64,000 nt of DNA. Origin: Burkholderiales bacterium (GTDB lineage Bacteria > Pseudomonadota > Gammaproteobacteria > Burkholderiales > JAEUOS01). The notes below the pieces were generated by a model. That model did not search any database and was not told the origin of the DNA. It was given only the letters and a program-made list of their open reading frames with translations. How positions within the stretch are numbered: position 1 is the stretch's first letter; each line of letters opens with the position of its first letter. The position numbers and the translations under genes were made by a program. The stretch spans positions 2,806,587 through 2,870,586 of the forward strand of contig OZ257137.1 of assembly GCA_965279115.1 (NCBI GenBank). The letters are read 5' to 3'. Positions 41,338 through 62,251 of the stretch are shown one piece after another.

Positions 41338-41347
41338 TTTGAATGTT

Positions 41348-41367
41348 TGGTCTGGGGCTCTCTCGAA
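41348..41367 (-). repeat. degenerate copy of the tRNA-Phe 3' end (putative att remnant)
   Basis: The minus-strand TTCGAGAGAGCCCCAGACCA compares with the tRNA TTCGATTCCGCCCCAGGCCA. The GCCCCAG(A/G)CCA core has one mismatch, and 16 of 25 positions match over the wider alignment. Confidence 0.35.
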
Positions 41368-41420
41368 TGATGTCCGAAGACCGTTGCGGCCCAACAGACC
41401 TAGAAAAGCGAAAAAGCCGG

Positions 41421-41441
41421 TTACCCCCAGTATTACCCCCG
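41421..41441 (+). repeat. paired TTACCCCC motifs, 12-bp spacing (left island end)
   Basis: TTACCCCCagtaTTACCCCC. The same paired arrangement occurs at 62119-62139. Confidence 0.6.
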
Positions 41442-41446
41442 CCGCC

Positions 41447-41626
41447 CTAGTTGTTGCTCAAACTGAGTCCGAGAAATCTCGCAAGCTCCTCGACGTTCAC
41501 CTTGGTTTCGGCCATAGACAGATTTAGCATCTTCACAATCTCCTCGTTTCCCCGTTCCTTCTGGTCATCGGTGAGCGTTGCGGTTTCAGCTTCAAGTAAA
41601 CCTTCAGCAGTTCGAATGAGAGCCAT
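41447..41626 (-). CDS. 59-aa hypothetical protein (possible HTH) at the island's left edge
   Basis: Below the ORF-track cutoff and translated by hand: MALIRTAEGLLEAETATLTDDQKERGNEEIVKMLNLSMAETKVNVEELARFLGLSLSNN. The segment VNVEELARFLGLS resembles an HTH turn. Confidence 0.3.
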   Translation of the reverse strand: MALIRTAEGLLEAETATLTDDQKERGNEEIVKMLNLSMAETKVNVEELARFLGLSLSNN

Positions 41627-41705
41627 TTTCGTGATCCTTTCGAGTCAACAATTTGCGGGCAATCACTCGCATTTTCAAGCGAGAACTCGCAATTCCAAGC
41701 CAGAC

Positions 41706-44363
41706 TCACCGTAGGGCAGCGCACCGCTCAATCTCGGCTTTTACCCCAACCATATATTTGACAGCAGTTTGCCACAAGAACGAAAGAAGAGTGTCTTGCG
41801 CCGATTGGTCGGATGGCGCCGCGCCGCTCACCGGCTTTTCGGGGATCAAGCTCAAAAGCTTGCTGTCTTTGGCCGTGGACGCGATAGTGAGAACGCCGAT
41901 CGTTTCCTCGGGCGAAATTTCTTCTCCGGGCTCAATGTCTCGCAGCGGCAACGGGATGGCGATCAAAACAGCGAATCTTTCGTCTACTGCCGGTTTTCTA
42001 TCTCCATAGTAAACATAGCCGCCGTCATGCTCTGGCCCCCACAACTCCCTCAGGGCGAACATCTGCAACTTGCGCTTCTTGAATGCTGTCCCGGCAACGC
42101 CTTCGCCCAATGGAATACTTTCCACTCGCCCTGAAAGGGATGCGTTGTCGCCAGCCTCCAACACGAGTTCCAGCCTATTCGTACGTTGATCGTACGTGAA
42201 CACTGCCACCGCTATTTTCTCGTCTTGAGAATATTGCGATTTGATCTTGGGTTTCAGCAACAGCTTGTAGATATCATCGAGCTTGCCCTTGGCGAGTTCA
42301 CGTAGTTTCTCGATCTCGGAAGACGGACTCTTGTCCCTGAATTGCAAAAGCGACTTACGCAGTTCGAGCGTCGCGCCTTTGTCTCTGATCGTGACTTCGT
42401 CGGCCGCCGTATTGACACGCCATCGGATCAAATATGCATAGCCAACAAGCGGCTCGGTGATTTCCAGCGCCCATCCATTGAACTCGGTGTGGGGATCTCG
42501 TTTCGTTCCCTGTTTCCGCCCAAGAGGACTCAGCCGGGATGACTCAAAATGGCCAATGTCCTCGTCGACCGTGTACCCACTGGCGCCAATTACAACCTCG
42601 CCGGCTGCGTCATCCACTTCCAGGTTCGGATAGCCATTTGACCGCTCGCAGAGAACGTGCGCCTCCGGCTGATGAAACGTTGTCGGAAGCCAAACCTTTA
42701 ATACGAGGCGCTTTGCCGGATGTCGGACTGCAACGCCCATATAGTCGAAGCCATTCAAGTTTGGATCCGCCTCCGTTTCCCACCTCGAGGTGGCAAATGT
42801 ATTGATAGTGCGAAATACGGCACCGTAATGATTGACCACCCTGCCGCTCAGATCACGGCCAAAATTGACATCGAGCTTCAGTTCCTTCGTAGGTTCATCA
42901 CTTTCAGGGGGGGCGATATAGTGCCCCGCAATGCTTGAGATGTCGTCGACTGCGGCGCCGGAAGGATTGATGGCACCGAGCTGAACAGACAATCTAAGTG
43001 ACCCTTTCCCCGACGAATTTCCCCCTAAGACTCTGTAGCCATCTACCCAGAGGTGAAAGTCCGCTGCCCCTGATTCGTAAACGTGCACCTCCCGGCCAAT
43101 GCAATCGCAGAAAGAATTCAGCAGTGCTACAGCTTTCTCGTAACTCCGATGCTTTACGGATTCAATAGGCAGGATTTCACGAATCTCCGAGGCCATCGTA
43201 CTCAATGCAGTTTGCCCCCGGCCATAACTGACGACCTGATGATTCATGAGACCGCTCGGGTGAATATCCACCAAGTTGAATGCATTGCGTCCGGCCTCGT
43301 CATGGCGAACCGTCGGGGAGCCGGCTGCGATTACTGCGAGTTCGCCGGCCGGACGGCTGGGTACCGAGTAGGAGAGCCTGCTGAAAGCCGAATAGTGCTT
43401 GTGCCCGTGAAGCACTAAGTCAAAGTGGTGCTTGCCCAGTTCATGCAGCAGTGTTCCGGCGTTCCGCAATACAAGGAAAGCTTCAATCGATGTCAGAGAT
43501 TCCTTCGTGGTGGAATGAGGTATCGGAAGGGGGTGGTGGTGAACCAGCGCGATTCTTGGGGCTAGACAAATCGTTACCCTGGTGTTGCGCAAACTCATCA
43601 GAGCCATGTCTAGCTTGTGGATATCGTTCTCGTCGACTTTGCCGGTGGCTAGGACCAAGCGGCAGTTTGAATTGAATGCGGCAAATAGAACAGCGTCGCC
43701 GCCTTCCTTTACTCCTCGCGGTCCTTGCGCATCGCTACTCTTCCGAACCTGAATTGGCAATATTTGTATGACATCAAGGGGTGTCTCTTGCTGCGGGCCG
43801 GCATTCAAGAGCCCAATCAGACGCATAGCGAAAAACTGGGCACACCAGCGCCAATAGGAAAGCCATCTCGACTTACTGCGCGAATGATATTCAGTAAACG
43901 TGGGGAGTTGGTCGAAAACACCCGCGTGCTTTTGCCTAAATACGACCCTTACGTAGCGGCTCCAAGGCCAAAACACAAGGTTTCCCATCACTGCGACGTC
44001 GTGGTTTCCGGGCACGTAGTAGATTTTGCAGTTCAGCCGATTGGCCAAGGCTTGGAGTTCGCGGCGAGCAAGGCCCAGTTCGAATAGCCATGGCGAATCC
44101 ACGATATCCCCCGTCACGACAACCGCGTCCGGACGATGCCTTTCGGTCAGCATGGCACTGACGTATCTCCAAAGCTCCGGATCGAATTGCGAGCCAAAAT
44201 GAATATCGGAAAGGTGCGCGATCCGATAGAAACCATTGCGATTTCTGCGCTGCGATGTATCGCCGTCAGCCCTTTCTGACGAACTCTCCGCAGTGCCGCT
44301 TTCGCCTCTTGGGTCGGGGCTATTGGCTTCCGAACCCACTCCATTCTGATGTTCCGTCGGCAT
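41706..44363 (-). CDS. large metallophosphoesterase (class III PDE-like motifs) with an unknown middle region and a C-terminal GAF-like domain
   Basis: All calcineurin-like motifs are present in order: LSDIHFG, TGDIVD, PGNHDV, LVHHHP, LHGHKH. The C-terminus carries a GAF-like block (IPLGEGVAGTAFKKRKLQMF...VLIAIPL...IGVLTIAS). Start taken at ATG 44363; the ORF track extends to 44492. Confidence 0.8.
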   Translation of the reverse strand: MPTEHQNGVGSEANSPDPRGESGTAESSSERADGDTSQRRNRNGFYRIAHLSDIHFGSQFDPELWRYVSAMLTERHRPDAVVVTGDIVDSPWLFELGLARRELQALANRLNCKIYYVPGNHDVAVMGNLVFWPWSRYVRVVFRQKHAGVFDQLPTFTEYHSRSKSRWLSYWRWCAQFFAMRLIGLLNAGPQQETPLDVIQILPIQVRKSSDAQGPRGVKEGGDAVLFAAFNSNCRLVLATGKVDENDIHKLDMALMSLRNTRVTICLAPRIALVHHHPLPIPHSTTKESLTSIEAFLVLRNAGTLLHELGKHHFDLVLHGHKHYSAFSRLSYSVPSRPAGELAVIAAGSPTVRHDEAGRNAFNLVDIHPSGLMNHQVVSYGRGQTALSTMASEIREILPIESVKHRSYEKAVALLNSFCDCIGREVHVYESGAADFHLWVDGYRVLGGNSSGKGSLRLSVQLGAINPSGAAVDDISSIAGHYIAPPESDEPTKELKLDVNFGRDLSGRVVNHYGAVFRTINTFATSRWETEADPNLNGFDYMGVAVRHPAKRLVLKVWLPTTFHQPEAHVLCERSNGYPNLEVDDAAGEVVIGASGYTVDEDIGHFESSRLSPLGRKQGTKRDPHTEFNGWALEITEPLVGYAYLIRWRVNTAADEVTIRDKGATLELRKSLLQFRDKSPSSEIEKLRELAKGKLDDIYKLLLKPKIKSQYSQDEKIAVAVFTYDQRTNRLELVLEAGDNASLSGRVESIPLGEGVAGTAFKKRKLQMFALRELWGPEHDGGYVYYGDRKPAVDERFAVLIAIPLPLRDIEPGEEISPEETIGVLTIASTAKDSKLLSLIPEKPVSGAAPSDQSAQDTLLSFLWQTAVKYMVGVKAEIERCAALR

Positions 44364-44881: not shown

Positions 44882-46066
44882 ATGCAAGACATAGTCATAC
44901 AATCTAGTGACGAAACGCATATTTTGGAGGAAGATTTCGTCAATTTGTCACGTTTGGCTGCGAGCGAAGCGTTTGATGATGTCCGCATGCTGCTGGCGAA
45001 GCTTGTCCGCAAGTACAGGATCACCCGGCCGGAGTTTGCTCAACGACTTAACACTAGTCTTCGGGCTGCAAATGCGCGCTCGGGAGGTTCGGGATTATTG
45101 CGTCGCCATACGCCCGAGATGTCAAAAAGTTCCGATATGCCTGTCGACGCTGACTCACGAATGTCACTCATCCGCGTATTCGACGATCGAGCTGGACTGC
45201 AGCCCCCGCTCCTGCCCGAGGGTTTGTTCGACCAGATCCACGACATCGCACGAGAACGCAAGCAGCGAGCGCGCCTCGCAAAGCGTGGCGTCACACCGAG
45301 TCGGTCCGCCATTCTCGTCGGGCCGCCTGGGGTCGGCAAGACATTGTCTGCACGCTGGATCGCGCATCTAATCGGCAAGCCACTGTGGATACTGGATTTG
45401 ACGACGGTCATGAGCAGTCTTCTTGGCAAGACAGGCAATAACCTGCGAGCAGTGTTCGACCATGCGCGTCAGAATGAGGCAGTGCTGCTTTTGGATGAAA
45501 TCGACGCGATCGCAAAGCGTCGCAGCGACGAATCCGACGTCGGTGAGTTGAAGCGGTTGGTTACGGCAATCTTGCAGGAGGTGGATGCTTGGCCCGATTC
45601 GGGATTGCTACTGGCAGCAACTAATCATCCGGAACTGGTAGACCCGGCGCTGTGGCGTCGATTCGATGTAATTTTGTCCTTTCCCGCAACGGATGCCAGT
45701 TTGCTCGAGCAGGCCGTCGAACGTTTTCTGGGTCTGGATCTAAGTACGTTTCAGGCACACGTTCAATTGCTGGCCCTTTCGCTTCAGGGCATGTCTTTGT
45801 CGGACGTCGAACGCGCCGTTACGGCTCTCCGGCGAACGGTGGCCTTGAAGCGAAGTGACCCTACCACCGCTGTACTAGCTATGGCCAAGCAACATGTCAG
45901 TCACCTCGACAAACCTGCAAAGAGGAGATTGGCAATAGCAATGGCGGGCTCTGAAACATTTCCACACACGAAGATCATGGAGCTCACTGGCGTCTCGCGA
46001 GACACGATCCGCAAGTACGCCGGCCCCTCTCCAATAAAGGGACGTCCAGAAAAGAAGGAAGCCTAA
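44882..46066 (+). CDS. ietA: AAA+ ATPase, IetA-like
   Basis: Walker A GPPGVGKT, Walker B LLLDEID, sensor-1 AATN, and an RRFD arginine. The gene lies directly upstream of an S8 protease gene (1-nt gap). Start at ATG 44882 after an AT-rich promoter region. Confidence 0.75.
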   Translation: MQDIVIQSSDETHILEEDFVNLSRLAASEAFDDVRMLLAKLVRKYRITRPEFAQRLNTSLRAANARSGGSGLLRRHTPEMSKSSDMPVDADSRMSLIRVFDDRAGLQPPLLPEGLFDQIHDIARERKQRARLAKRGVTPSRSAILVGPPGVGKTLSARWIAHLIGKPLWILDLTTVMSSLLGKTGNNLRAVFDHARQNEAVLLLDEIDAIAKRRSDESDVGELKRLVTAILQEVDAWPDSGLLLAATNHPELVDPALWRRFDVILSFPATDASLLEQAVERFLGLDLSTFQAHVQLLALSLQGMSLSDVERAVTALRRTVALKRSDPTTAVLAMAKQHVSHLDKPAKRRLAIAMAGSETFPHTKIMELTGVSRDTIRKYAGPSPIKGRPEKKEA

Positions 46067-46067
46067 C

Positions 46068-48284
46068 ATGGCCAATCGATTTATTATCGGTCGTGGGGAG
46101 CTTCTGACCTACGACATCCTCCCACCGTCAATCAAGCCGACGAAATCACATCCATATACGCTTGACCAGGCCAAGGAGGCGGTTATTCCGCAAATTAGGA
46201 AAGCTGCGGTGGTGATGAAGGAATTACCGCAAGAGGCCTGCCCCCAGGACGTAAGCGTTGCGCAGCTGGACCTGCACCCGGCCTACATCTCAAAATCTTA
46301 CTTTCCCCAGGCACTGCTGCGACAGGCCGGCTTAACATCGATCGGTAGCCGAAATGTCGTAGTTCGGCCACGCAAACGTCACTCGAAAGCGGCGCCGGAA
46401 GAATCTGAGACGACCAGGCTATTTATTGCCGGCACGCGGAGTGCGTTTGCCAAACTGCCTGATTTCGCCATCGCATTGCAACCTGAAACCAAGGAGGCGG
46501 AGAATTTCGCAGAGATCGAATCCTTTTCCGCGATGACAGTAACCGATCGCGTGCGCCCTTCTCCTTCCGGCCAGGAAATATTTGAAATCGGCGTTCATCT
46601 ACTCCCGGATGAGCAACTGGAAGCGACGCGCAGCGCATTTCGAAGGTATGCCAAGTCATGCGACTTCGAAATTCACCCCGAGCTGGAATTCCCTGTCGGG
46701 CGCATGATCTTTTTCGCGGCCCGCGGCGAGAAAAGAAATCTGAACCGACTCGCAATGTTCAGCCTCGTGCGCGTGGTACGTCCAATGGCAAAAATGCGTG
46801 GTTCACGCCCGATTCCCCGCGGAACAGGGACGCTGGTCGACTTCATGCTTCCAGCAAGTCAGCCATTAGCCGACGAGCCGCGCGTGGCGATCTTGGACGG
46901 CGGCTTACCTGCAAAACATCCGCTGACCCGTTTCGTGAAGAAGTACGAGAAGTCAGATCCACGGGCGGCGGACGTTCCTGCATATCTCGACCATGGGCTT
47001 GCGGTCACGTCCGCCTTTCTTTTTGGGCCGATTGAGCCGGAAGAAGAGGCGGTTCGTCCCTACACGCCGGTCGACGTTTTTCGTGTCCTCGATTCCAAGT
47101 CGGACAAAGAAGATCGGTACGAACTGTTCCGCACCATGGGCCACGTGGAAGAGATTCTCTTGACCCGGCAATATCAGTTCCTCAATATAAGCCTCGGACC
47201 CGAAGCGATCGTGGAGGACAACGATGTGCACGCGTGGACGTCTATGCTCGATACCATGTTGTCGGATGGAGAGACAATCGTCACCGTGGCGGTGGGTAAC
47301 AATGGCGCCGGAGACAAAGCACTACAGCAGGATCGTCTGCAAGTGCCTTCAGACAGTGTCAATGCTATCTCAGTGGGCGCCGCGAACCGCTCAAGGGCGT
47401 CGTGGCAACGGGCATCCTACAGCGCTCGCGGCCCCGGGCGCAGCCCTGGGCGCCGGAAACCCGATGTCGTGGTTTTCGGGGGAAGTCCGAAGGAATACTT
47501 TCATGTCGCCGCGCCCGGGACGCGGCCGCAACTTGTCGCGACATTCGGGACGAGCTTTGCTTCACCGTACCTTCTTCGATCCTGTGTTGGTGTACGGGCA
47601 GTTCTCGGCGATCAGGTCCATCCGTTGACCGCAAAGGCCTTGGTTGTTCATGCAGCAGAAAACGAAGACGGACTGCATCCCGACGATGTCGGCTGGGGCC
47701 GTGTTCCAAGTGATTTGAACGCGATCATTTCTTGCGGTGTCGGTGTCGCGCGCATCATTTATCAGGGAACTCTGCGTCCTGGAAAGTTACTGCGCGCGCC
47801 ACTTCCACTTCCCACCAAAGCCTTGGCAGGCAACATCGAAATCACGGCAACCTTCTGTTACGCGAGCCCGGTCGACGTCGCGGATGCCGCCACGTATACC
47901 AAGGCTGGCCTCACCATTCGGTTCCGTCCAAACTCGGATAGGAAGACCAAGGGTAAGAAGCCTGAGGCGGCAACAAATTCCTTTTTTTCCCAAGGGGAAT
48001 TTCGAACTGAAAAGCAGCTTCGCGCTGATCTTGGCAAATGGGAAACTGTCCTACACGCTAAAGCCACCAAGCGTGGCAGCAGCTTGAAGGAACCCTGCTT
48101 TGACATCCACTACAACGCACGGGACGGTGGAGGGCCGACCGGCTCCGGTGCGGAAATTATCCGTTACTCATTGGTCTTGACTGTTCACGCCCCTAGGCAT
48201 GTCGACATTTACGATGAGATATTGAGATCGCACGCAAAGCTACAGGCGCTTGCGCCTCGGGTAGCGTTGCCAATTCGAGCGTGA
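46068..48284 (+). CDS. ietS: subtilisin-like (S8) serine protease, IetS-like
   Basis: Catalytic blocks in the S8 order: AILDGG (Asp), DHGLAVTSA (His), VGNNG (Asn), GTSFASPY (Ser). Large N- and C-terminal extensions. Confidence 0.8.
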   Translation: MANRFIIGRGELLTYDILPPSIKPTKSHPYTLDQAKEAVIPQIRKAAVVMKELPQEACPQDVSVAQLDLHPAYISKSYFPQALLRQAGLTSIGSRNVVVRPRKRHSKAAPEESETTRLFIAGTRSAFAKLPDFAIALQPETKEAENFAEIESFSAMTVTDRVRPSPSGQEIFEIGVHLLPDEQLEATRSAFRRYAKSCDFEIHPELEFPVGRMIFFAARGEKRNLNRLAMFSLVRVVRPMAKMRGSRPIPRGTGTLVDFMLPASQPLADEPRVAILDGGLPAKHPLTRFVKKYEKSDPRAADVPAYLDHGLAVTSAFLFGPIEPEEEAVRPYTPVDVFRVLDSKSDKEDRYELFRTMGHVEEILLTRQYQFLNISLGPEAIVEDNDVHAWTSMLDTMLSDGETIVTVAVGNNGAGDKALQQDRLQVPSDSVNAISVGAANRSRASWQRASYSARGPGRSPGRRKPDVVVFGGSPKEYFHVAAPGTRPQLVATFGTSFASPYLLRSCVGVRAVLGDQVHPLTAKALVVHAAENEDGLHPDDVGWGRVPSDLNAIISCGVGVARIIYQGTLRPGKLLRAPLPLPTKALAGNIEITATFCYASPVDVADAATYTKAGLTIRFRPNSDRKTKGKKPEAATNSFFSQGEFRTEKQLRADLGKWETVLHAKATKRGSSLKEPCFDIHYNARDGGGPTGSGAEIIRYSLVLTVHAPRHVDIYDEILRSHAKLQALAPRVALPIRA

Positions 48285-48314: not shown

Positions 48315-48653
48315 ATGATCAAACCAGTGAAGCTTACCAATGGCCGTGCCTGGCGTAAGTCCGGCGACGCGCTGGCCCATTTCAAGGCGATGCTGGGGCG
48401 GTACAACGTTGGGCAGAAAATCACCGATCCAAACGATCACGCTGATCTTGTCGCTCTCGTCTCGGTTTATGACTCCGACTTAGCACCAGGCCACGGCACG
48501 AAAGCAGGCCTAGGCATCGAATATTTCTTCAAGGATCATTGCGGTGATGCGGGATACTCGACAGATTGCTTCCATATCCATAGAATCGACGACTCAACAG
48601 TTGACTTCAGCTACATCCACGCGGTGAGGAGCGCCGGCAAGCTGACGCCCTGA
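48315..48653 (+). CDS. small DUF3223-like protein downstream of ietS
   Basis: 112 aa. MIKPVKLTNGRAWRKSGDALAHFKAML...CFHIHRIDDSTVDFSYIHAV resembles the DUF3223 pattern from memory; not verified. Confidence 0.45.
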   Translation: MIKPVKLTNGRAWRKSGDALAHFKAMLGRYNVGQKITDPNDHADLVALVSVYDSDLAPGHGTKAGLGIEYFFKDHCGDAGYSTDCFHIHRIDDSTVDFSYIHAVRSAGKLTP

Positions 48654-50700: not shown

Positions 50701-50717
50701 TCAGTGGACGAGCTACC

Positions 50718-53975: not shown

Positions 53976-53978
53976 AAT

Positions 53979-54556: not shown

Positions 54557-55153
54557 CTATTTCATCCAGGACTCCAGGTCTTCGCGCGCCAGGCCGCATT
54601 CCGCCCATGCTTCTTCGAACCTTTTGCTTCGTTCTTCGCCCGACGGTGGAAGGACGCTTCGAATGAAAGACGGCGACGGTGAAGAAAGGCCGCCGCGCGC
54701 CAGCCATCCGACCAACCAATCGATCGAGGCCTTGATGTGTTCCGACAGCGCAGCGATAAAGCGGTCCGGAATGGACGATAGTTGTACCGTCTTGCTATCA
54801 AGCATTTCAAGCAGTTCCACACTGCAATCAAGCTTTCCTGCAACTTCGAAGATATCAATGCCGGAGGCTTGCGCGGTAGAAATAATGCCGGGCGGCATTA
54901 CCCTGCTTCGAAATTTGTGAAGCCGATTGGCCAGATCGCTGCCTGCACGCGTGTGCGCTAAACCCTCGTTCACGGAGCCAGGCCCGCTCGTCGAGCGAAG
55001 CTGGTACAGCCATTCACCAACGAACGTGGTGATGTCGTCGGTGAACTCGGGATACCGTGCGCACCAGACTTTTGCTGTCCGACAGTCGGGGACATCGACC
55101 GATGACTGCATTGCTTGCAGAACATCGTCCAAATTGGGGCGGCTGGAATTCAT
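54557..55153 (-). CDS. hypothetical protein with a possible HTH segment (candidate partner/anti-sigma of the upstream gene)
   Basis: 198 aa. ATGA overlap with the sigma-like gene. The segment ISTAQASGIDIFEVAGKLDCSVELLEMLDSK looks XRE-HTH-like. This is a weak call. Confidence 0.4.
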   Translation of the reverse strand: MNSSRPNLDDVLQAMQSSVDVPDCRTAKVWCARYPEFTDDITTFVGEWLYQLRSTSGPGSVNEGLAHTRAGSDLANRLHKFRSRVMPPGIISTAQASGIDIFEVAGKLDCSVELLEMLDSKTVQLSSIPDRFIAALSEHIKASIDWLVGWLARGGLSSPSPSFIRSVLPPSGEERSKRFEEAWAECGLAREDLESWMK

Positions 55154-55887
55154 GTTCTTTCTCCGATTTCAGCTTTGAGGGCCGCGAAAATTTTCTCGAA
55201 CCAGTAGTGCACAGTCCGCTTATTGCGATGGACTAGCTTTTCGATGGAAATAACGTCGGGGTCGCTAGACTCGATCGGGTACCCGTCGCTATACCAATAT
55301 TCGAATGCCACTCGTTGCTCGTCTTTGAGCGTGGGCAAAACCTTCTGCAGAGCCATGCGCAAATTCTCGCTCAGCTCCATTGCGCGCTTCATTTCCAACA
55401 TGGCCTGGGCGTTGCTAATCGGCACCTCGTCGAGGTCTTCGCCCACAACCACTTCTTTGGCGCGTAGCTTCCTTAGGCGCGCTGCCGCTGTCAACGCGCG
55501 GCGCGAGACGAAGTGACCGAAGGAGATCTCACAATAGCGGAGCCTGCTTAGGTCAGCGTGGATCAGGTCTTCATTGATCGCGTGGAGTGTCCGGTCGACT
55601 ACTTCCTGGGCGTCGATTTCAGCCAGCCCCATGCACTTGCTGTTGGCAATTTTGATTGCGCGGGGATAGATTTGCTGGTCGACAAGCTGCTGAAAGAGGT
55701 CGTCATATCCCCAGGCTAAAAGGCGCCTCGCGAGAGTACACAGCGTCTCCTTTTTCCATTGGTGCGCCTGGTCAACCCAATCGTCCACAGGTACGTCGCC
55801 GGCAGCCGACAGCTCAACGACCACCTCCGGGCGTCGAACAAAGCCGGTCGTGCCGGAGGACGCGTTCGCTAGCGGTGAGGTGTCCAT
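55150..55887 (-). CDS. sigma-70/ECF-like protein (region 2-like and region 4 HTH-like segments)
   Basis: AEIDAQEVVDRTLHAINEDL is region-2-like. LPTLKDEQRVAFEYWY...IEKLVHRNKRTVHYWFEKIFAALK is region-4-like. The similarity was judged by eye only. Confidence 0.45.
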   Translation of the reverse strand: MDTSPLANASSGTTGFVRRPEVVVELSAAGDVPVDDWVDQAHQWKKETLCTLARRLLAWGYDDLFQQLVDQQIYPRAIKIANSKCMGLAEIDAQEVVDRTLHAINEDLIHADLSRLRYCEISFGHFVSRRALTAAARLRKLRAKEVVVGEDLDEVPISNAQAMLEMKRAMELSENLRMALQKVLPTLKDEQRVAFEYWYSDGYPIESSDPDVISIEKLVHRNKRTVHYWFEKIFAALKAEIGERT

Positions 55888-56292: not shown

Positions 56293-56392
56293 GCTTGCTA
56301 CTGTCGCTACCGCTGCTACCGATCAGAATTCAGGGGAAGGGGTAGGGGCAGCGACGATAGCAACAGTAGCAACAGTAGCAACAGTAGCAGCC
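56293..56392. repeat. iteron-like 9-bp periodic repeats in inverted arrangement (candidate replication origin or long hairpin)
   Basis: The left arm has three NNNNGCTAC units (56293-56319). The right arm has RTAGCAACA three times plus GTAGCAGCC (56357-56392). They flank AGAATTCAGGGGAAGGGGTAGGGG, and the array starts 32 bp past the primase stop. Confidence 0.75.
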
Positions 56393-56423: not shown

Positions 56424-58943
56424 TCAGTCGGCGTTCCCCAGGAGCGCAGTATTGATGACTACATACCGTCTGCGCCCGTCTTCTTCCAGTCGGGCCCGGT
56501 TACGTTCGGCGAGAATGGACAGCGCCGCCTGGAAGTCCCGGCTGCTGCGCACGCAATTCGGCCCATACTGATAGATGCGCTTGGTCGGTACACGATCCAC
56601 GCCGTTGGCGCGCGCTTCCTGACGCAGCCAGGCATCGAACCGGATCGCAGCAGCCATAGAGGGTGGCGTATCCAATTCAGCAAGCAGGCGCCGCGCTTCG
56701 CCTAAGTGCCACCCAACTATATGGACGGCCGCATCAATATCCCCAACCCCGATCGTTCCAGCAGGCCCATGCGCCAGCACATGAAACAGCGCTGCCAGGC
56801 GCGCAGCATTCTCCGCCGCCTTCGCGGCCACATCGCGAACAGCGCGGAATTCCCCATGTGCACCGAGTTCACGCTCAATCCCATCGTGAAACTGGATCCA
56901 CTCCGCACGTGCCTGCGGCGCGAGATCGAGGATGGGCGGATCAAGGCCGCCGCAGGCGTCGGCCGCGAGTGCCTGCCCGAGCAGGTCGCCGATGCGCGCC
57001 GCATACAACGTCACGCTCGGCATGGTCGCGGGCGCCGGCCGATACGGCCGCTGTCCTTGCGTGCTGTCTGGCCAGGCCATGAGGAAGCGCGCGATAAACC
57101 CGGTCCCTCGTGGCAGCGGTCCGGCCCGTTCCAGGAACCCCCGTAACGCCTCCGGCTGCGCCATCAACCCGAACGTGAGGCGCCGGCCGCGCAGCAAGAA
57201 CGAGGGCCGGGATCGCCGATCGATCGCCATCTCTCCGCCGTCCCACAGGACATTGAGCAGCGCCAGATTGCGCAGAATCGTGTCCTGCCCCATGCCATGC
57301 GCGCCGAACACCGCACCGGCTTCCGCGGACAGCACGCCGCCGCTCGGCCAACCGTTGGCCAGCGCATGCGCCAGTGCTTCTGGCGTCGCATCGGCGTAGA
57401 TCAGGCGCGGCACGACAAGCGGCGCAAGCGCCTGGCGGACCAGGTCCTCCAGTTCACTCTCTTGGACCGTCGTGTCCTGCGCGCGGCGCCGCCGCTGCTT
57501 GATGGCTTCGAGAAGGCCTGCTTTTTTCGCCTCGTATGCCGCGATTGCCGCTTCGCGCTGGGCGATCGCCGGCGCCATGCCCAGGATCCGACCGGTTTCC
57601 CAATCCCGCAACGCCTGGCCAAAGATCGCGTCACAGGTGGTCTTGCGTTCCCCGGAATCGGCCACTGCCATCAGATACAGGGAAATCGGACCCACCAACT
57701 GGTGATCCCGGCGCACGTTGGCCAACCCCTGCGCCGCCAGCGATAGTGCCGCCAGGGCCGAGCACGCGACAAGTGCCATGGGGGCCTGTACAAAGCCCTG
57801 GGCTTCGGTCACCGCGTCGCGCAACATCGTGGGCAGGGCGTCGACCGGGTAAGGCTGCGCGTCCATCGGTTCGGTCAAGGGTTCGGGCTCTGGCCATTCC
57901 GGAAATCGCGTCCCGCTGGCCTGTGGAGGCCTTGTGTCGAAATTGCCGCCGGCTACCGGCTCCACGGCTGCGGTAGAGAGCGTATTTCGAACGGCGATCA
58001 AACCCTGGAGCTGATGCAGGTCGTTGAAGTCCGTCGCGCCGTCCGGGCGATCGGCACCAAATGCCGGAACCGCGAGTCGCGCATCCACCGCACGCGCAGC
58101 GGCGCGGGCGTGCGTGAGGCCTGGATTGCCAGGCGTGGCCGCATCGTCATCGGCGCAGATGATGAGCTGCGCCCGGGGATGTTTATCCCGGATGACCCCG
58201 GCGACCGCGCCAAGATTGCCGGCATGGAAGGCCACGGCCACCGGATGCCCTGTGGCCAGGTGAATGCTCGCGCCGGTCGCATAGCCTTCGGCGACGCAGA
58301 TGACCCCCGCCGTGGTATTGCCGACATCTCCGATTCCGCAAAACAGGCCGGCGACACGTCCGCCCTTCAGGAATCGCTTGGTGCCGCCTCCCGTGATGAA
58401 CTGCAAGCTGTGCAACACGCCGGCCGCGTCGCGTAGCGGTACGACCAGGGCCCCCTTGTAGACGCGTATCCCGAACGCGCCGACACCTTTGCGCACCAGG
58501 TAGGGGTGGTGGTGGTCTGCCGGCTGTGCCGTCTCCCAGAGACGCGTAGCGCGAGCCTGCGCGGCACGGTGACGTACTGCATTTGCTGCCTCGCGCCGAT
58601 CGAGGTCGACGCGGGTTCGCGTGGCAATCGTCGCATGTTCCCCTGGCGACAATTCTCGTCCCGAGTCGAAGCGCCAGGATTCCCAGCCGCGGCCATCACG
58701 CCAGTTCTCCAGACCGCCCGCCGGTAACCCATCCATGTGCAGGACGTAGGCGGCATCGCCGCGACCGTGCTTGCCGGCCGCGTCGCAGCGATGCAGGCAA
58801 CCGTCTGCGAGTATCGGTTCCGGTGGGACGATGTCGCGGGCGACGAGGGCAGCGCGAAACTGATCCACGACCGACGCCAAACTGGGGGCGGTTCTCGGGG
58901 CGTGGCTTGGGCGAGGAGAAGAGGATTTCTGATCGCCAGCCAT
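56424..58943 (-). CDS. Toprim-domain primase-like protein with a DUF3987-like C-terminal half (island replication protein)
   Basis: Toprim Glu in VICVAEGYATG and DxD in IICADDD. The C-terminal DSGERKTT block is typical of DUF3987 proteins. The gene starts 6 nt after the alpA stop. Confidence 0.8.
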   Translation of the reverse strand: MAGDQKSSSPRPSHAPRTAPSLASVVDQFRAALVARDIVPPEPILADGCLHRCDAAGKHGRGDAAYVLHMDGLPAGGLENWRDGRGWESWRFDSGRELSPGEHATIATRTRVDLDRREAANAVRHRAAQARATRLWETAQPADHHHPYLVRKGVGAFGIRVYKGALVVPLRDAAGVLHSLQFITGGGTKRFLKGGRVAGLFCGIGDVGNTTAGVICVAEGYATGASIHLATGHPVAVAFHAGNLGAVAGVIRDKHPRAQLIICADDDAATPGNPGLTHARAAARAVDARLAVPAFGADRPDGATDFNDLHQLQGLIAVRNTLSTAAVEPVAGGNFDTRPPQASGTRFPEWPEPEPLTEPMDAQPYPVDALPTMLRDAVTEAQGFVQAPMALVACSALAALSLAAQGLANVRRDHQLVGPISLYLMAVADSGERKTTCDAIFGQALRDWETGRILGMAPAIAQREAAIAAYEAKKAGLLEAIKQRRRRAQDTTVQESELEDLVRQALAPLVVPRLIYADATPEALAHALANGWPSGGVLSAEAGAVFGAHGMGQDTILRNLALLNVLWDGGEMAIDRRSRPSFLLRGRRLTFGLMAQPEALRGFLERAGPLPRGTGFIARFLMAWPDSTQGQRPYRPAPATMPSVTLYAARIGDLLGQALAADACGGLDPPILDLAPQARAEWIQFHDGIERELGAHGEFRAVRDVAAKAAENAARLAALFHVLAHGPAGTIGVGDIDAAVHIVGWHLGEARRLLAELDTPPSMAAAIRFDAWLRQEARANGVDRVPTKRIYQYGPNCVRSSRDFQAALSILAERNRARLEEDGRRRYVVINTALLGNAD

Positions 58944-58949
58944 GCGCGG

Positions 58950-59174
58950 TTATTCCGGGCGGCGGTCGCCGTCGCGGGCGATCTTGACGCGCCCGGCGAT
59001 CCACGCACTGACCTCCGATTCAAGCCAGCCGACCGCGCGCGGGCCAAGCGGTACGGGTTTCGGGAATGCGCCTTCCTGGATGTATTGATAGATGGTGCTG
59101 CGCGAGAGTCCCGTGCGCGTCTGGACTTCCTTGCGGCGGAGAAACGCAGGCTCACGCTGGATGGTCTGGGACAT
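58950..59174 (-). CDS. alpA: AlpA-family transcriptional regulator / excisionase-like
   Basis: FLRRKEVQTRTGLSRSTIYQYIQEGAFPKPVPLGPRAVGWLESEVSAWI is the classic AlpA HTH. GAGGTG SD 6 nt before ATG 59174. Confidence 0.8.
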   Translation of the reverse strand: MSQTIQREPAFLRRKEVQTRTGLSRSTIYQYIQEGAFPKPVPLGPRAVGWLESEVSAWIAGRVKIARDGDRRPE

Positions 59175-59270
59175 GGTCGTCACCTCACGGCTGGCAATGG
59201 AAGATGCCGATGTTTCCACGGCGAACCGCCGGTGTCCGACGCGATTGCGGCCTTGGCGAAGCACTGATTC

Positions 59271-59668: not shown

Positions 59669-60124
59669 CACCTGGTCGCTGTGCGGTCGCGAGGCAAGGA
59701 TTTTTCACGGTGGCTCCGCCAGCCCGCCTGATGCGCGTTAAGCATCGCCCATGGCTCGTTCACGCGAGCGCCAGAAGCCGGCCACATCTCCCGCAAGCCG
59801 GCGACCGAAAGGTACGGAGATCGTCCATGCGATCCCGCCCTACGGGCGGCCTGTTCAAGCAACACGCAACGATTGGCACCTTCAGATCGCCCACACTGCT
59901 GCAACGGTGGCGCGATTCGTAGCGGTTCCCTGACTCGCTCACCGGGAGCGCGCATCTTCTCGTTGTGGTGCGCGACACTGCGCCAGTCGCAGCCCAGGCT
60001 TGCGGCGCGTGTCCAGCGTGTCGCTGGACGTTCGCGTCAATGCAGCGACGCCAGGCGTCACATCTGTGGCGCGTACTGCGCCAATGTATTTGCGTCTTGC
60101 GGTGCCATCTTCTGCAGCAACCAT

Positions 60125-60165
60125 CGCGTCGTCACTACCCGGCGCCAGCCAGTAGTGACGACGCG
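60125..60165. repeat. 14-bp perfect inverted repeat with a 13-nt spacer, part of an AGTGACG motif cluster
   Basis: CGCGTCGTCACTAC-N13-GTAGTGACGACGCG. Further AGTGACG copies lie at 60208-60214 and 60221-60227. Confidence 0.7.
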
Positions 60166-60863
60166 CACAATGTCCTTGCCATCAAAGACTTATCGGTGGC
60201 TGGCGCAAGTGACGACCCCAAGTGACGGGCTCCCTGACCCGTCGTCAATCCGGACCGCGCAATACGGTCTGCCTTCTCGCCTGCTCCCCGCAGGCATCGT
60301 CAATACCGCGCCGAGCAAGCGCCCCTCAGAGCCCTGGGTCAACGGCTCAAATCGTTGGAACAGCTTCCAACAGGAAAGCACCATCGACGCCAAGAACGGG
60401 TGCAGCCGTGGCAAGTAGCAAAAGCAGTTCTGCACACATCGGGAGTGGTGTCCCGAGTCCCTTGTAGTTCCCGACACGCCCAGGCGTGCGGGACGGACAG
60501 AAACACTTACCGGACAGGCTTCACACACCAGCGTCATCACATCAAGAAGGACTACTGGCGCAACGAACCGAGGAAAGGAATTGAGACAGGCGGCAAATCA
60601 ACTCACAATCACACACACGATCCGAACTTCGGACAGCAGCACATTTGGAACCGCGATCGCGAAGGTGTCCATGCCCCTGGCTGCGCGGTTGTTAGCAGTG
60701 CTGAAACGCCGCTCCGGAGCCGGGTCAAGGGCGGGCGCATGCCCGGCGTAGCGAACCCTTGACGCGGTGGAGGGGCGGAACAAGCTCGTGCGTGGCCGGA
60801 AGTGCGGCGCCTTCGCGCTTACGGCCATGCCGGCCAGCGCTATTGCAAAGCCGAAATACCCGG

Positions 60864-62084
60864 TTACGCCGCGCGCGGTTTCAGAGGAATCACCTCGGCA
60901 CCTTGCCGTAGCCGGTCGAGGTAGTCCGCCCATTTCTGCATCATGCGGCGCCGCGAGTCGAGATGTGCCGTGCGGTTATAGGCGCGACCGTTCGGATCTT
61001 TGACGGCGTGCGCGAGCTGGTGCTCGATCCAGTCAACCCGATACCCCAACCCCTCGTCCAGCAGCGTTCGCGCTGTCGCGCGAAACCCGTGCGTGGTGAC
61101 CTCGCTCGTGGAATAGCCAAGGCGACGTAGCGCGGCGTTCAAGGTGTTGTCGGAGATCGGACGTTCTCCCGTCCGCTCGCCTGGAAACAGATAACGCCCG
61201 TGCCCAGTCAGCGGCTTCAGTTCGTCGATGATTTTCAGCGCCTGCTTGCAGAGCGGGACAATATGCGGCTCGCCCATTTTCATTTTCTTGGCGGGCAAGC
61301 GCCACTCGGCCGCCTCAAAGTCGAACTCTGCCCACTCCGCCATCCGCAATTCGCCCGGACGCACGAACAGGAGCGGCGCCAGGCGCAGCGCGGCTTTGGT
61401 GGTTGGTGAGCCGGAGTAGCCCTCGATCGCCCGCAGGAGCGCGCCAAGCGCCACGGGCTCGACGATGGCCGCGAGGTGGGTCTTTTGGGCGGGCGGTAGG
61501 GCACCACGCAAATCGGTGGACGGATCGCGTTCCGCGCGGCCGGTCGCGACGGCGTACCGAAATACCTGGCTGCAGTTCTGTTGTGCTCGGTGCGCAGTTT
61601 CGATCGCGCCGCGTTCTTCAATGCGGCGCAGGGTCGCCAACAATTGCGGCGCCCTGATTTCCGCAACGGGCAGGCCGCCTATCCACGGGAAGACATCACG
61701 CTCCAGGCGGCGGATGATCTTGCTGGCGTGCCCAGGTGCCCACTTGGGCGAGAACTTCGAAAACCACTCGCGCGCCACCCGCGCGAAGCTGTTTTCGCTT
61801 CGCTCCGTGCTCGCCGCCTTCTGCATCTGGCGGTCGATGCTGGGATCGATGCCGTTGAGCAACAGTTTCCGCGCCGCATCGCGACGGTCACGCGCATCCC
61901 GGACACCGATCTCGGGGTAGACGCCAAGGGACAGGAGCTTTTCCTTGCCGGCAAAACGGTACTTTAGTCGCCACCATTTGGAGCCGGCAGGCGTCACGAG
62001 CAGGAACATGCCTTTCTCGTCGCTGATCTTGTACGCCTTGTCCCGCGGCTTGGCGTTTTTGGCCGCTGCGTCGGTGAGTGCCAT
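60864..62084 (-). CDS. int: tyrosine recombinase / integrase, P4-type with DUF4102 arm-binding N-terminus
   Basis: N-terminus LTDAAAKNAKPRDKAYKISDEKGMFLLVTPAGSKWWRLKYRFAGKEKLLSLGVYP, the C-terminal HGFRATARTLL block, and the YNRTAHLDSRRRMMQKWADYL tyrosine region. Confidence 0.95.
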   Translation of the reverse strand: MALTDAAAKNAKPRDKAYKISDEKGMFLLVTPAGSKWWRLKYRFAGKEKLLSLGVYPEIGVRDARDRRDAARKLLLNGIDPSIDRQMQKAASTERSENSFARVAREWFSKFSPKWAPGHASKIIRRLERDVFPWIGGLPVAEIRAPQLLATLRRIEERGAIETAHRAQQNCSQVFRYAVATGRAERDPSTDLRGALPPAQKTHLAAIVEPVALGALLRAIEGYSGSPTTKAALRLAPLLFVRPGELRMAEWAEFDFEAAEWRLPAKKMKMGEPHIVPLCKQALKIIDELKPLTGHGRYLFPGERTGERPISDNTLNAALRRLGYSTSEVTTHGFRATARTLLDEGLGYRVDWIEHQLAHAVKDPNGRAYNRTAHLDSRRRMMQKWADYLDRLRQGAEVIPLKPRAA

Positions 62085-62118
62085 GGAGTTGGGGGTAGCA
62101 GATTTTAGGAGGCTGACA

Positions 62119-62139
62119 TTACCCCCAACGCTACCCCCA
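62119..62139 (+). repeat. paired (T/C)TACCCCC motifs, 12-bp spacing (right island end)
   Basis: TTACCCCCaacgCTACCCCC, 35 bp upstream of the integrase start. It mirrors 41421-41441 in the same orientation. Confidence 0.6.
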
Positions 62140-62182
62140 AAACAGACCGGATGTCAACGAATCCAGGTGGCCGACATTGGAC

Positions 62183-62216
62183 GAAAAAAGCCGCGCTCAG
62201 AGGAGAAACGCGGCTT
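62183..62216 (-). terminator. rho-independent terminator downstream of tRNA-Phe
   Basis: Minus-strand AAGCCGCG-N13-CGCGGCUU followed by a U run (six T after CGCGGC). Confidence 0.55.
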
Positions 62217-62251
62217 TATCGGACTGCTTTGGAATTCTTTGGAGGGGTAAC

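What the first reader, a model, noticed from the sequence alone, without database searches (positions are those of the whole stretch)
41338..62251. 21-kb tRNA-Phe island: integrase, AlpA and primase backbone with four stacked defence-type modules
- Composition: G+C drops abruptly by eye at about 41.34 kb and recovers at the tRNA.
- Right end: tRNA-Phe, its terminator, a P4-type integrase, AlpA and a Toprim/DUF3987 protein. This is the backbone seen in PICI-like and P4-like satellites.
- Left end: a degenerate copy of the tRNA 3' end (GCCCCAGACCA against GCCCCAGGCCA) sits just before an intact terminator. That terminator looks like the displaced original tRNA terminator.
- Mosaic structure: the backbone (56.4-62.1 kb) is visibly more GC-rich than the cargo (41.4-55.9 kb), which suggests cargo exchange.
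- Cargo: every gene is either a recognisable immunity component or an unknown.
Basis: partly seen in the sequence, partly recalled or inferred. Interest (0 to 1): 0.6.

Follow-up and report, generated by a model that had tools for sequence, protein, structure and literature searches.

The report
tRNA-Phe defence island with replicative backbone
A 21-kb mobile island sits in the tRNA-Phe gene of an uncultured Burkholderiales bacterium; it pairs an integrase, AlpA and primase backbone with two known and two candidate anti-phage modules, which is a familiar kind of element with some undescribed parts.

Summary
G+C falls from about 0.65 to 0.53 at 41.3 kb. A tRNA-Phe gene (62252-62327, minus strand) is followed by its own terminator, a P4-type integrase, AlpA and a Toprim/DUF3987 primase.

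The closest relative (L001) has both flanks and the tRNA but lacks the 21-kb block. The left junction aligns with that relative's native tRNA 3' end plus terminator (62/78 identical, about 8 sd above shuffles).

TACCCCC repeats occur at both island ends and at only one other place in the window. Iterons lie next to the primase gene.

Cargo:
- IetAS and BilABCD are complete known systems.
- An 885-aa metallophosphoesterase is a stand-alone candidate.
- A three-gene cassette (167 aa, 467-aa HExxH protein, Dcd-fold deaminase) keeps its gene order in five contexts, including a P2-like prophage. No library holds its first two genes.

Related backbones in 78 metagenome loci carry none of this cargo.

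No capsid-redirecting or packaging genes were found, so satellite status is unproven. PICMI is the nearest known family.

A roughly 420-nt conserved structured non-coding element lies between int and alpA. It matches no Rfam family.

Verdict: a new member of a known kind, with two leads worth testing.

The parts
41315..41340 (-). Displaced native terminator of tRNA-Phe, just outside the island
   Evidence: Strongest terminator-like site in the scan of 41.2-56.5 kb (11 pairs). Aligns with the terminator that follows tRNA-Phe in relative L001.
41345..41369 (-). Degenerate remnant of the tRNA-Phe 3' end (distal attachment-site core)
   Evidence: CATTCGAGAGAGCCCCAGACCAAAC against GGTTCGATTCCGCCCCAGGCCACCA, 15/25 identical. 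The 11-mer has one mismatch. Significant only as part of the 62/78 alignment to L001.
41421..41441 (+). Two direct TTACCCCC repeats 12 bp apart, a putative distal integrase arm site
   Evidence: The same motif and spacing occur next to int.
41447..41626 (-). 59-aa ORF just downstream of the phosphoesterase gene
   Evidence: No family hit. Resembles, by eye only, an 87-aa gene after the homologue in L137.
41706..44363 (-). 885-aa metallophosphoesterase with a long C-terminal extension; candidate single-gene defence protein
   Evidence: Metallophos E 6e-14. Partial, below-cutoff hit to NCBIfam DS9_1 anti-phage phosphoesterase. The fold of the N-terminal domain resembles Rv0805, GpdQ and SMPDL3A. 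Homologues sit in Tn7-like cargo and beside defence-like genes.
44882..46066 (+). IetA (AAA+ ATPase)
   Evidence: PADLOC IetA E 3e-74; Pfam AAA E 2e-28. Start placed from the profile match.
46068..48284 (+). IetS (S8 subtilase)
   Evidence: PADLOC IetS E 5e-44 over residues 34-724; Peptidase_S8 E 2e-17.
48315..48653 (+). 112-aa DUF3223 (HamC-like) protein with no Hachiman partners
   Evidence: PADLOC HamC2 E 3e-34; Pfam DUF3223.
48692..49300 (-). Dcd-family (dUTPase-fold) dCTP deaminase-like protein, third gene of the cassette
   Evidence: TIGR02274 125 bits against a cutoff of 92.8. PF22769 E 9e-35. Aligns to M. tuberculosis Dcd 2qlp. The canonical Asp is replaced by His or Gln across the cassette family.
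49297..50700 (-). 467-aa protein with an invariant GHExGH motif, second gene of the cassette
   Evidence: No Pfam, PADLOC, NCBIfam or PHROG hit. Only 45 relatives found. Invariant columns. A confident model has no PDB match.
50718..51221 (-). 167-aa protein, first gene of the cassette
   Evidence: No family hit. Conserved upstream partner in all five contexts.
51642..53012 (-). BilD (E1-like)
   Evidence: PADLOC BilD E 2e-168.
53018..53536 (-). BilC (JAB deubiquitinase-like)
   Evidence: PADLOC BilC E 3e-59. Weak Prok-JAB hit. HTHVGRAFQSDAD motif read from the sequence.
53490..53975 (-). BilB (E2-like, DUF7665)
   Evidence: PADLOC BilB E 8e-61; PF24702 E 6e-59.
53979..54473 (-). BilA (ubiquitin-like, ends in Gly)
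   Evidence: PADLOC BilA E 8e-49. C-terminal ...RVEG.
54557..55153 (-). 198-aa unknown protein; its start overlaps the stop of the upstream sigma-like gene
   Evidence: No hits.
55150..55887 (-). 245-aa divergent sigma-70-like protein (region 4)
   Evidence: 44 relatives among 1.84 billion representatives. 12 of 32 of them hit Sigma70_r4_2. The protein itself hits the ECF sigma model only weakly.
56295..56390 (.). Iteron block (GTAGCAACA three times, with inverted copies); putative replication origin
   Evidence: An analogous inverted iteron block follows the primase gene in L129.
56424..58943 (-). Primase-helicase (Toprim_3 + DUF3987/YfjI-like)
58950..59174 (-). AlpA-family regulator or excisionase, 74 aa
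   Evidence: PF05930 E 9e-23. Start placed.
59707..59822 (-). Second short conserved non-coding block
   Evidence: 75-78% nt identity to L073, L116 and L125-L135 over 100-123 nt; a 43-nt stretch at 86% in L061.
60120..60540 (-). Conserved structured non-coding element of about 420 nt (strand not settled)
   Evidence: 72-85% nt identity in 28 loci. No conserved reading frame. Covariation. No Rfam match.
60864..62084 (-). P4-type tyrosine integrase, 406 aa
   Evidence: Belongs to a 25-member cluster at 90% identity or more.
62090..62139 (.). Three TACCCCCA motifs (one inverted, two direct 12 bp apart) just upstream of int; putative proximal arm sites
   Evidence: Conserved in position in L125-L135.
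62184..62214 (-). Island-borne terminator that now serves the tRNA
   Evidence: Conserved in related islands.
62252..62327 (-). tRNA-Phe(GAA), the integration target

Best explanation
This is an integrative island of about 20.9 kb in the 3' end of the tRNA-Phe gene of an uncultured Burkholderiales bacterium.

**Shown**
- The block is absent from the closest relative that shares both flanks.
- Its tRNA-proximal end is island DNA, shared with related islands elsewhere.
- Its distal end keeps the old tRNA 3' end and the native terminator.
- It has an intact P4-type integrase, AlpA and a Toprim/DUF3987 primase-helicase.
- Its cargo holds complete IetAS and BilABCD systems.

**Inferred**
- The integrase binds the TACCCCC repeats at both ends as arm sites and recombines within the tRNA-derived core.
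- AlpA switches on excision.
- The primase-helicase replicates the excised circle from the iteron block beside its gene.
- The element has no transfer or packaging genes, so it depends on a helper for spread. The helper is most likely a phage (as for PICMI-type satellites), less likely a conjugative element.
- The 15 kb between the origin and the distal end is a swap zone where defence modules of different origin accumulate and protect the host, and so the island.
- The 885-aa phosphoesterase, whose catalytic domain is closest in fold to the cyclic-nucleotide phosphodiesterase Rv0805, is probably a stand-alone defence enzyme.
- The three-gene cassette probably releases or activates a Dcd-fold nucleotide deaminase under control of the HExxH protein. 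That would deplete or alter the dCTP pool during infection.
For: - **Composition and GC3 tiers:**
- **tRNA, integrase, AlpA, primase:**
- **Synteny:** L001 matches on both flanks while the island block is missing.
- **Left junction:** homologous to the native tRNA end and terminator (62/78; shuffles 5.3 +/- 2.1 against 22.5).
- **tRNA-proximal sequence:** conserved in seven loci with integrases at least 90% identical, beside a tRNA-Phe in another chromosomal setting.
- **TACCCCCA motif:** 5 copies against 0.67 expected. One (36932) lies in host DNA and the other four at the island ends, where a further TTACCCCC copy brings the total to 2 distal and 3 proximal, with the same 12-bp spacing.
- **Iterons:** next to the primase gene here and in L129.
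- **Backbone and cargo:** AlpA-primase is conserved in 78 loci with no shared cargo. Other defence genes occupy the same position there.
- **Minimal version:** L129 appears to be a cargo-less form of about 5.5 kb.
- **Known systems:** IetAS and BilABCD by PADLOC.
- **Dcd cassette:** same gene order in 5 of 5 contexts, including a P2-like prophage next to the portal gene.
- **Phosphoesterase homologues:** found in Tn7-like cargo and next to defence-like genes. Metallophosphatase-based defence has been validated experimentally (PMC13092281).
Against: - The distal tRNA remnant is degenerate (15/25), so recent mobility is not shown. Only GCCCCAG is shared exactly by the two ends.
- No excised form, empty site in the same species, or helper is known.
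- No relative of the primase or of the 420-nt element was found in IMG/VR.
- L001 is not a clean empty site. It holds 2.5 kb of other DNA, including an integrase fragment.
- Defence roles for the phosphoesterase and the Dcd cassette rest on context only. The Dcd-like protein lacks the canonical Asp. The HExxH protein has no detectable relative of known function.
- In L129, no arm repeats were found at the far end.
Confidence: 0.8

Rival explanations
1. It is a fixed, decaying genomic island. It arrived once by integration but can no longer excise, and it survives only because its defence cargo is useful.
For: - The distal core is degenerate.
- Many related loci hold only truncated or frameshifted primase genes, including L129 and L066.
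- Relative L001 retains only an integrase fragment.
Against: - Int, alpA and the primase gene are full length here.
- The integrase belongs to a 25-member cluster at 90% identity or more.
- Arm-type repeats are kept at both ends with identical spacing.
Confidence: 0.3
2. It is an integrative mobilizable element moved by conjugation rather than a phage satellite. On this reading the conserved 420-nt hairpin-rich element is an origin of transfer, or a single-strand initiation site, that acts as DNA.
For: - No phage-hijacking genes were found.
- No relatives were found in IMG/VR.
- The element folds about equally well on both strands.
- Its position and orientation relative to alpA-primase vary between loci.
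Against: - No relaxase or mobilisation gene is present among the called ORFs.
- The int + AlpA + DUF3987 primase core is the one that defines PICMI satellites (PMC10803314).
- About seventeen helices over 420 nt is far more structure than known origins of transfer have (own knowledge).
Confidence: 0.15
3. The low-G+C block is ancestral chromosome, and the integrase, AlpA and primase genes are an unrelated small element that landed beside it.
For: A cargo-less form of about 5.5 kb seems to exist (L129).
Against: - L001 lacks the whole 41.3-62.25 kb block, not just the backbone.
- The tRNA remnant, native terminator and arm-type repeats lie at the far end of the cargo.
- Cargo GC3 (0.57-0.77) is far from the host's 0.80-0.90.
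Confidence: 0.03

Closest known systems
PICMI (phage-inducible chromosomal minimalist islands of Vibrionaceae; PMC10803314)
   Same: - The core is integrase, AlpA and a DUF3987-type primase.
- There are no capsid-remodelling genes.
- Accessory positions hold anti-phage genes.
   Different: - PICMIs integrate next to fis, and fis is a mandatory marker in the published model. This element integrates in tRNA-Phe.
- PICMIs are small (PICMI115 has six genes). This element is 21 kb, of which 15 kb is cargo.
- The host is Burkholderiales.
- Helper dependence is untested.
P4-like satellites and their defence hotspots (Rousset et al. 2022, cited in PMC12595487; PMC8628076)
   Same: - A P4-type integrase at a tRNA gene.
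- An AlpA-like regulator.
- A primase with an adjacent origin.
- A variable defence hotspot.
   Different: - No psu, delta or sid equivalents were detected.
- The helicase half of the primase is DUF3987/YfjI-like.
tmRNA/tRNA genomic islands with intY and alpA that carry defence systems and are moved by a jumbo phage (PMC12595487), and Vibrio phage-defence elements cited there
   Same: - Integration at a tRNA-type gene with flanking repeats.
- A tyrosine integrase plus AlpA.
- No genes for autonomous transfer.
- Defence cargo.
   Different: - Different integrase target.
- The backbone here has its own primase-helicase and origin.
- That paper's text does not mention a primase at all.
E. coli CP4-57 cryptic element (intA-alpA-yfjI; own knowledge, not tested here)
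   Same: The trio of integrase, AlpA and a YfjI/DUF3987 protein. Plasmid hits to the C-terminal half are annotated 'YfjI family'.
   Different: - CP4-57 integrates at ssrA.
- The protein here fuses a Toprim primase to the DUF3987 domain.
dCTP-deaminase defence (nucleotide depletion; bioRxiv 10.1101/2021.04.26.441389) as an analogue for the cassette
   Same: The proposed outcome is the same: a deaminase acting on dCTP during infection.
   Different: - The enzyme here is of the Dcd/dUTPase fold (TIGR02274, PF22769).
- No PADLOC model matches it.
- It always comes with two partner proteins that belong to no described family.

Membership tests
tRNA-integrated genomic island with P4-type integrase | Tyrosine integrase with an Arm-DNA-binding domain next to an intact tRNA gene | tested here: met
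tRNA-integrated genomic island with P4-type integrase | A copy of the tRNA 3' end at the far boundary | tested here: met
   The copy is degenerate (15/25). The junction is nonetheless homologous to the native tRNA end plus terminator of L001 (62/78, about 8 sd above shuffles).
tRNA-integrated genomic island with P4-type integrase | Absent from a relative that has the same flanks | tested here: met
   L001 matches both flanks but lacks the block. It is not a clean empty site: 2.5 kb of other DNA is present.
IetAS defence system | Adjacent AAA+ ATPase (IetA) and S8 protease (IetS) | tested here: met
   PADLOC E 3e-74 and 5e-44; Pfam AAA and Peptidase_S8. Walker A GPPGVGKT and the GTSFASP serine motif were read.
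Bil (bacterial ISG15-like) system | Four genes: ubiquitin-like BilA, E2 BilB, JAB BilC and E1 BilD | tested here: met
   PADLOC E 8e-49, 8e-61, 3e-59 and 2e-168, in one co-directional block.
Bil (bacterial ISG15-like) system | BilA ends in glycine; BilC has the JAMM metal motif | tested here: met
   ...RVEG stop, and HTHVGRAFQSDAD, in the translations. Read by eye.
P4-like satellite | Capsid-size and late-gene control genes (psu, delta, sid) | tested here: not met
   No Pfam, PHROG or NCBIfam hit of that kind among the island ORFs scanned. SatelliteFinder itself could not be run.
PICI / cfPICI | Packaging-interference genes (terS, ppi, rpp) or own capsid genes | tested here: not met
   None detected.
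PICMI | Integrase + AlpA + DUF3987 or DUF5906 primase | tested here: met
   The model is described in PMC10803314.
PICMI | Integration next to the fis gene | tested here: not met
   The element is integrated in tRNA-Phe. No fis gene was seen among the ORFs read next to either junction, and these flanks were not family-scanned.
PICMI | Excision, replication and packaging induced by a helper phage | not testable with these tools
   Needs experiments or virome reads. No relatives in IMG/VR.
DS-8 / DS-9 metallophosphatase defence systems (DefensePredictor) | A match above the family cutoff, plus a NACHT domain (DS-8) or a HAD partner (DS-9) | tested here: not met
   NF053862 scores 75 bits against a cutoff of 420, and NF053861 22 bits against 790. 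No NACHT or HAD was found. Only the phosphoesterase domain is related.
Known dCTP-deaminase defence (PADLOC models) | A match to the defence deaminase models | tested here: not met
   No PADLOC hit for the Dcd-like protein or for its two partners.
Hachiman type II (HamC) | HamA and HamB partners next to the DUF3223 protein | tested here: not met
   Only the DUF3223 protein is present.
Rfam RNA families (for the 420-nt element) | A covariance-model match | tested here: not met
   No match at E <= 1 in 59.2-60.9 kb.

The most novel reading that the evidence does not exclude
The island belongs to an undescribed family of helper-dependent, PICMI-like satellites of Burkholderiales. On this reading its hallmark is a structured RNA of about 420 nt that controls or marks the element, for example for immunity, replication or packaging. 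It would also carry at least one undescribed anti-phage system: the three-gene cassette in which an HExxH protein controls a Dcd-fold deaminase.
Probability: 0.2. Interest if true: 0.7.

Novelty: new member of a known kind. Interest (0 to 1): 0.45.

Why it matters
Islands that pair a small integrase-AlpA-primase core with swappable immune genes are a main route by which bacteria share anti-phage defences.

This one extends the pattern to uncultured freshwater and groundwater Burkholderiales. It gives a clean example with mapped ends, arm-type repeats and a putative origin.

It also offers three concrete leads:
- A three-gene cassette built round a Dcd-fold deaminase. It recurs in prophage and island positions and is missing from every defence library searched.
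- A stand-alone 885-aa phosphoesterase, related through its catalytic domain to the recently validated metallophosphatase defences.
- A non-coding element that is better conserved than the primase gene and shows covariation.

If the cassette works as proposed, it would be a second, unrelated enzyme route to dCTP-based nucleotide defence.

Tried and rejected
- **Exact-protein look-ups failed.** Look-ups for the integrase, a flank protein and P0001 found no contig, so the source genome could not be retrieved. Cluster data say only that it is a 6.9-Mb record.
- **tRNA 3' end search inside the island.** The 16-30-nt matches at the left end are no better than chance sites. The 11-mer argument alone was dropped in favour of the comparison with L001.
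- **A supposed second terminator copy in L001 (6520-6545).** It is part of an integrase fragment, not a terminator.
- **Distal end of the cargo-less relative L129.** No significant homology to the window's distal end, so the attachment-site core length stays unknown.
- **Protein-coding reading of 60.1-60.6 kb.** Gene callers placed 183- to 338-aa ORFs there in relatives. Amino-acid identity is only 47% where nucleotide identity is 76%, and 1-nt indels break every frame.
- **Strand of the 420-nt element.** Alifold energies are -222.8 and -218.2, and the G-U counts favour the int-sense strand only mildly. Undecided.
- **IMG/VR scans.** Scans for the primase and for the element's invariant 19-mer gave nothing related.
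- **HExxH protein.** Foldseek against the PDB and a profile search of PDB sequences gave no match. An ImmA/IrrE-like reading of the motif is therefore only a guess.
- **Covariance model not built.** The element exceeds the 400-column limit.


Full report

Sliding G+C is 0.63-0.67 up to 41.0 kb. It falls to 0.52-0.58 between 41.0 and 51.5 kb, is about 0.60 over 51.5-54.5 kb and 0.54-0.58 over 54-56 kb, and returns to 0.62-0.68 from 56.0 kb. The drop at about 41.3 kb is therefore real. The recovery comes where the backbone starts, not at the tRNA.

Third-codon-position G+C gives the same three tiers:
- host genes: 0.80-0.90
- integrase, AlpA and primase: 0.73-0.78
- Bil genes: 0.67-0.77
- all other cargo: 0.57-0.69

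ARAGORN and Rfam both find one tRNA-Phe(GAA) at 62252-62327 on the minus strand. Reading on from the tRNA on that strand, the order is:
- a hairpin with a T-run (62184-62214)
- a 406-aa integrase with Arm-DNA-bind_3, Phage_int_M and Phage_integrase domains
- a 74-aa AlpA
- an 839-aa Toprim_3 + DUF3987 protein

**2. Is it an insertion, and where are its ends?**

The left-flank gene was used to fetch relatives. The window comes from an uncultured Burkholderiales bacterium. Cluster data show that several of its proteins come from a single 6.9-Mb record.

The closest relative, L001, matches the window at 39690-41251 (76% nt), at the tRNA, and at 62436-64000 (91% nt). Between the tRNA and the left flank it has only 2.5 kb of unrelated DNA. 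That DNA holds an outer-membrane-like gene, a BLUF gene, ccdAB-like remnants and a fragment of an integrase related to residues 176-207 of the one here. The 21-kb block is thus missing from L001. The site is also a repeatedly used spot, so L001 is not a clean empty site.

There are 10 one-mismatch matches in the window against 3.1 expected. The 15/25 match of the longer remnant is equalled by chance sites inside the island.

The decisive evidence is the comparison with L001. The stretch 41285-41369, read on the minus strand, aligns with L001's native tRNA-Phe 3' end, terminator and downstream TTTGCGCGA at 62 of 78 positions. The score is 22.5, against 5.3 +/- 2.1 (maximum 12.5) for shuffles.

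In contrast, the sequence right after the window's intact tRNA is unlike L001's. It is shared instead with seven loci that carry integrases at least 90% identical, beside a tRNA-Phe in a different chromosomal setting downstream of rpoC and a two-component system.

**3. Further anatomy of the backbone**

*Arm-type repeats.* The octamer TACCCCCA occurs five times in the window against 0.67 expected. Counting the related TTACCCCC copy as well, the motif has two direct copies 12 bp apart at 41421-41441. It has three copies at 62090-62139: two direct copies 12 bp apart and one inverted copy just before the integrase start. One further copy lies in host DNA at 36932. The proximal set is conserved in position in all seven close relatives and occurs nowhere else in those loci. 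I read these as integrase arm sites. That is inference.

*Putative origin.* Directly downstream of the primase gene lies an iteron block, GTAGCAACA three times with inverted copies (56295-56390). L129 has a block of the same design but different sequence at the same place. I read it as the origin. That is also inference.

*Primase relatives.* The N-terminal half of the primase resembles phage primases at 34-40% identity. The C-terminal half resembles YfjI-family proteins. No full-length relative is present in the phage or plasmid collections.

**4. Backbone against cargo**

A metagenome scan found 78 loci with relatives of the primase. Most that reach upstream also carry AlpA at 60-85% identity. 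Two integrase types occur, at 57-63% and about 32% identity.

None of the window's cargo proteins is found in any of these loci, apart from one distant IetA relative in L063. ORFs downstream of those primase genes include a different IetAS pair, a type III methyltransferase, a ZorD/DpdE-like helicase, PD-T4-6 and others.

L129 goes from int, alpA and a split primase straight into a host-like enoyl-CoA hydratase gene. A cargo-less form of about 5.5 kb therefore seems to exist. Many loci keep only C-terminal primase fragments, which points to frequent decay.

**5. The cargo, module by module**

*(a) Metallophosphoesterase, 41706-44363 (885 aa).*
- It has a Metallophos domain.
- It hits NCBIfam's DS9_1 anti-phage phosphoesterase only partially, at 75 bits against a cutoff of 420.
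- A confident model (pLDDT 84) matches Rv0805, GpdQ and SMPDL3A over the first 340-370 residues only.
- The family has more than 380 full-length members.
- In Methylobacter it sits in the cargo of a Tn7-like element next to glmS. In Burkholderia it sits beside AAA_13, a large helicase and PLD genes.
- Metallophosphatase-based defence has been validated for DS-8 and DS-9 (PMC13092281), but this architecture has neither NACHT nor a HAD partner.

*(b) IetA and IetS, 44882-48284.* Both match PADLOC models strongly. A lone DUF3223/HamC-like gene follows.

*(c) Three-gene cassette, 48692-51221.* It encodes a 167-aa protein, a 467-aa protein with an invariant GHExGH motif, and a 202-aa Dcd-family protein.
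- The Dcd-family protein scores above the TIGR02274 cutoff.
- The first two proteins match nothing in Pfam, PADLOC, NCBIfam or PHROGs.
- The 467-aa protein has only 45 detectable relatives.
- Its model is confident (pLDDT 88, pTM 0.89) yet has no Foldseek or profile match in the PDB.
- The three genes keep their order in all five contexts examined. These are this island, a P2-like prophage of B. glumae next to the portal gene, a prophage end in B. cenocepacia, an unrelated chromosome, and an insertion between mnmE and gidA in a Thiodiazotropha genome.
- The Dcd-like proteins keep the Ser, Arg and Glu of the deaminase site. The Asp of the canonical IDPGF motif is replaced by His or Gln.

*(d) BilA-D, 51642-54473.* All four match PADLOC models at E 8e-49 to 2e-168. 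BilA ends in Gly and BilC has a JAMM-type motif.

*Genes upstream of Bil.* A 245-aa protein and a 198-aa protein overlap by four bases. The former has only 44 relatives among 1.84 billion representatives, and 12 of 32 of those hit Sigma70_r4_2. It is probably a divergent sigma-like regulator. Its partner is unknown.

**6. How it most likely works**

Shown:
- It is an integrated element at tRNA-Phe.
- It has intact recombination and replication genes.
- It has two complete defence systems.
- It shares its backbone with many elements whose cargo differs.

Inferred:
- Integrase and AlpA drive excision at the tRNA-derived core, guided by the arm repeats.
- The primase-helicase replicates the circle from the iterons.
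- Spread needs a helper, because no transfer or packaging gene is present.
- The cargo protects the host.

The published PICMI model asks for integrase, AlpA, a DUF3987 or DUF5906 primase, and fis (PMC10803314). This element meets the first three and fails the fourth. It works like a PICMI as far as gene content goes, but it is not a member. P4-like and PICI membership fail for lack of hijacking genes.

No relative of the primase turned up in IMG/VR. This is weak evidence against frequent packaging.

**7. A by-product: a structured non-coding element**

The 1.6 kb between int and alpA has no convincing gene. A block of about 420 nt (60120-60540) is 72-85% identical to 28 related loci. It is better conserved than the primase gene, which is 66% identical at the nucleotide level.
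- Frames are broken by 1-nt indels, and amino-acid identity in the best frame is 47%.
- RNAalifold predicts many hairpins.
- For a 115-pair structure, 24 pairs change on both sides, against 11.6 +/- 2.2 in shuffles (0 of 500) and 6-12 when partners are slid.
- The count of extra pair types is no higher than in shuffles.
- The strand is undecided.
- The block lies upstream of alpA in the same sense here. It lies downstream of the primase in L050-L053, and inverted in L065, L073, L074, L078, L080, L105-L107 and L116.
- L043, L044 and L064 lack it.
- Rfam has no match.

**8. Verdict**

The kind of element is well known, so this is a new member of a known kind. Its value lies in the clean anatomy and in three testable leads: the Dcd cassette, the stand-alone phosphoesterase and the structured element.

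Noticed in passing
window 60120-60540 (also L045, L046, L050-L053, L061, L065, L071, L073, L080, L106, L116, L125-L135): A conserved non-coding element of about 420 nt between int and alpA. It is 72-85% identical across 28 loci and has many hairpins with compensatory changes (24 pairs against 11.6 in shuffles). It has no Rfam match, and its position and orientation relative to alpA-primase vary. The strand, and whether it acts as RNA or DNA, are undecided.
   Followed up: partly
window 59707-59822: A second short conserved non-coding block, about 300 nt downstream of the first. It keeps the same order and relative orientation to the first block in L073, L116 and L125-L135.
   Followed up: no
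window 41421-41441 and 62090-62139; L125-L135 next to int: TACCCCC(A) repeats with 12-bp spacing, found at both island ends and at only one other place in the window (36932). In relatives they are conserved in position in front of the integrase gene. They are likely integrase arm sites.
   Followed up: partly
window 56295-56390; L129 15010-15085: Inverted blocks of 9-bp iterons directly after the primase stop codon. The sequence differs but the design is the same in a relative, which suggests a co-evolving origin of replication.
   Followed up: partly
L001 4038-6586: The closest relative has 2.5 kb at the same tRNA-Phe site. It holds an outer-membrane-like gene, a BLUF gene, ccdAB-like remnants and a 32-aa fragment of a related integrase that abuts the conserved flank. 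The site has been used more than once.
   Followed up: partly
L054-L120 (many): Many metagenome loci hold only C-terminal or frameshifted pieces of the primase gene. Some hold two pieces on one contig (L045, L058, L065, L071, L077). This suggests frequent decay or tandem arrays of such islands.
   Followed up: no
window 54557-55887: A translationally coupled pair upstream of bilA. One is a 245-aa divergent sigma-70 region-4-like protein with very few relatives (44 among 1.84 billion representatives). The other is a 198-aa protein with no hit in any library or PDB search tried. They may be a dedicated regulator pair for the Bil operon.
   Followed up: partly
window 41447-41626; L137 3962-4225: A small ORF (59 aa here, 87 aa in Burkholderia) follows the 885-aa phosphoesterase gene in both places. 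The N-terminal similarity is weak and was judged by eye. The module may have two genes.
   Followed up: partly
L121 6993-7436; L140 6965-7465: In two of the five contexts, a weak MerR-like gene precedes the three-gene Dcd cassette. No such gene was seen in the window.
   Followed up: no
window 48315-48653: A lone DUF3223/HamC-like gene lies between IetS and the Dcd cassette, without the Hachiman partners. Its role is unknown.
   Followed up: no
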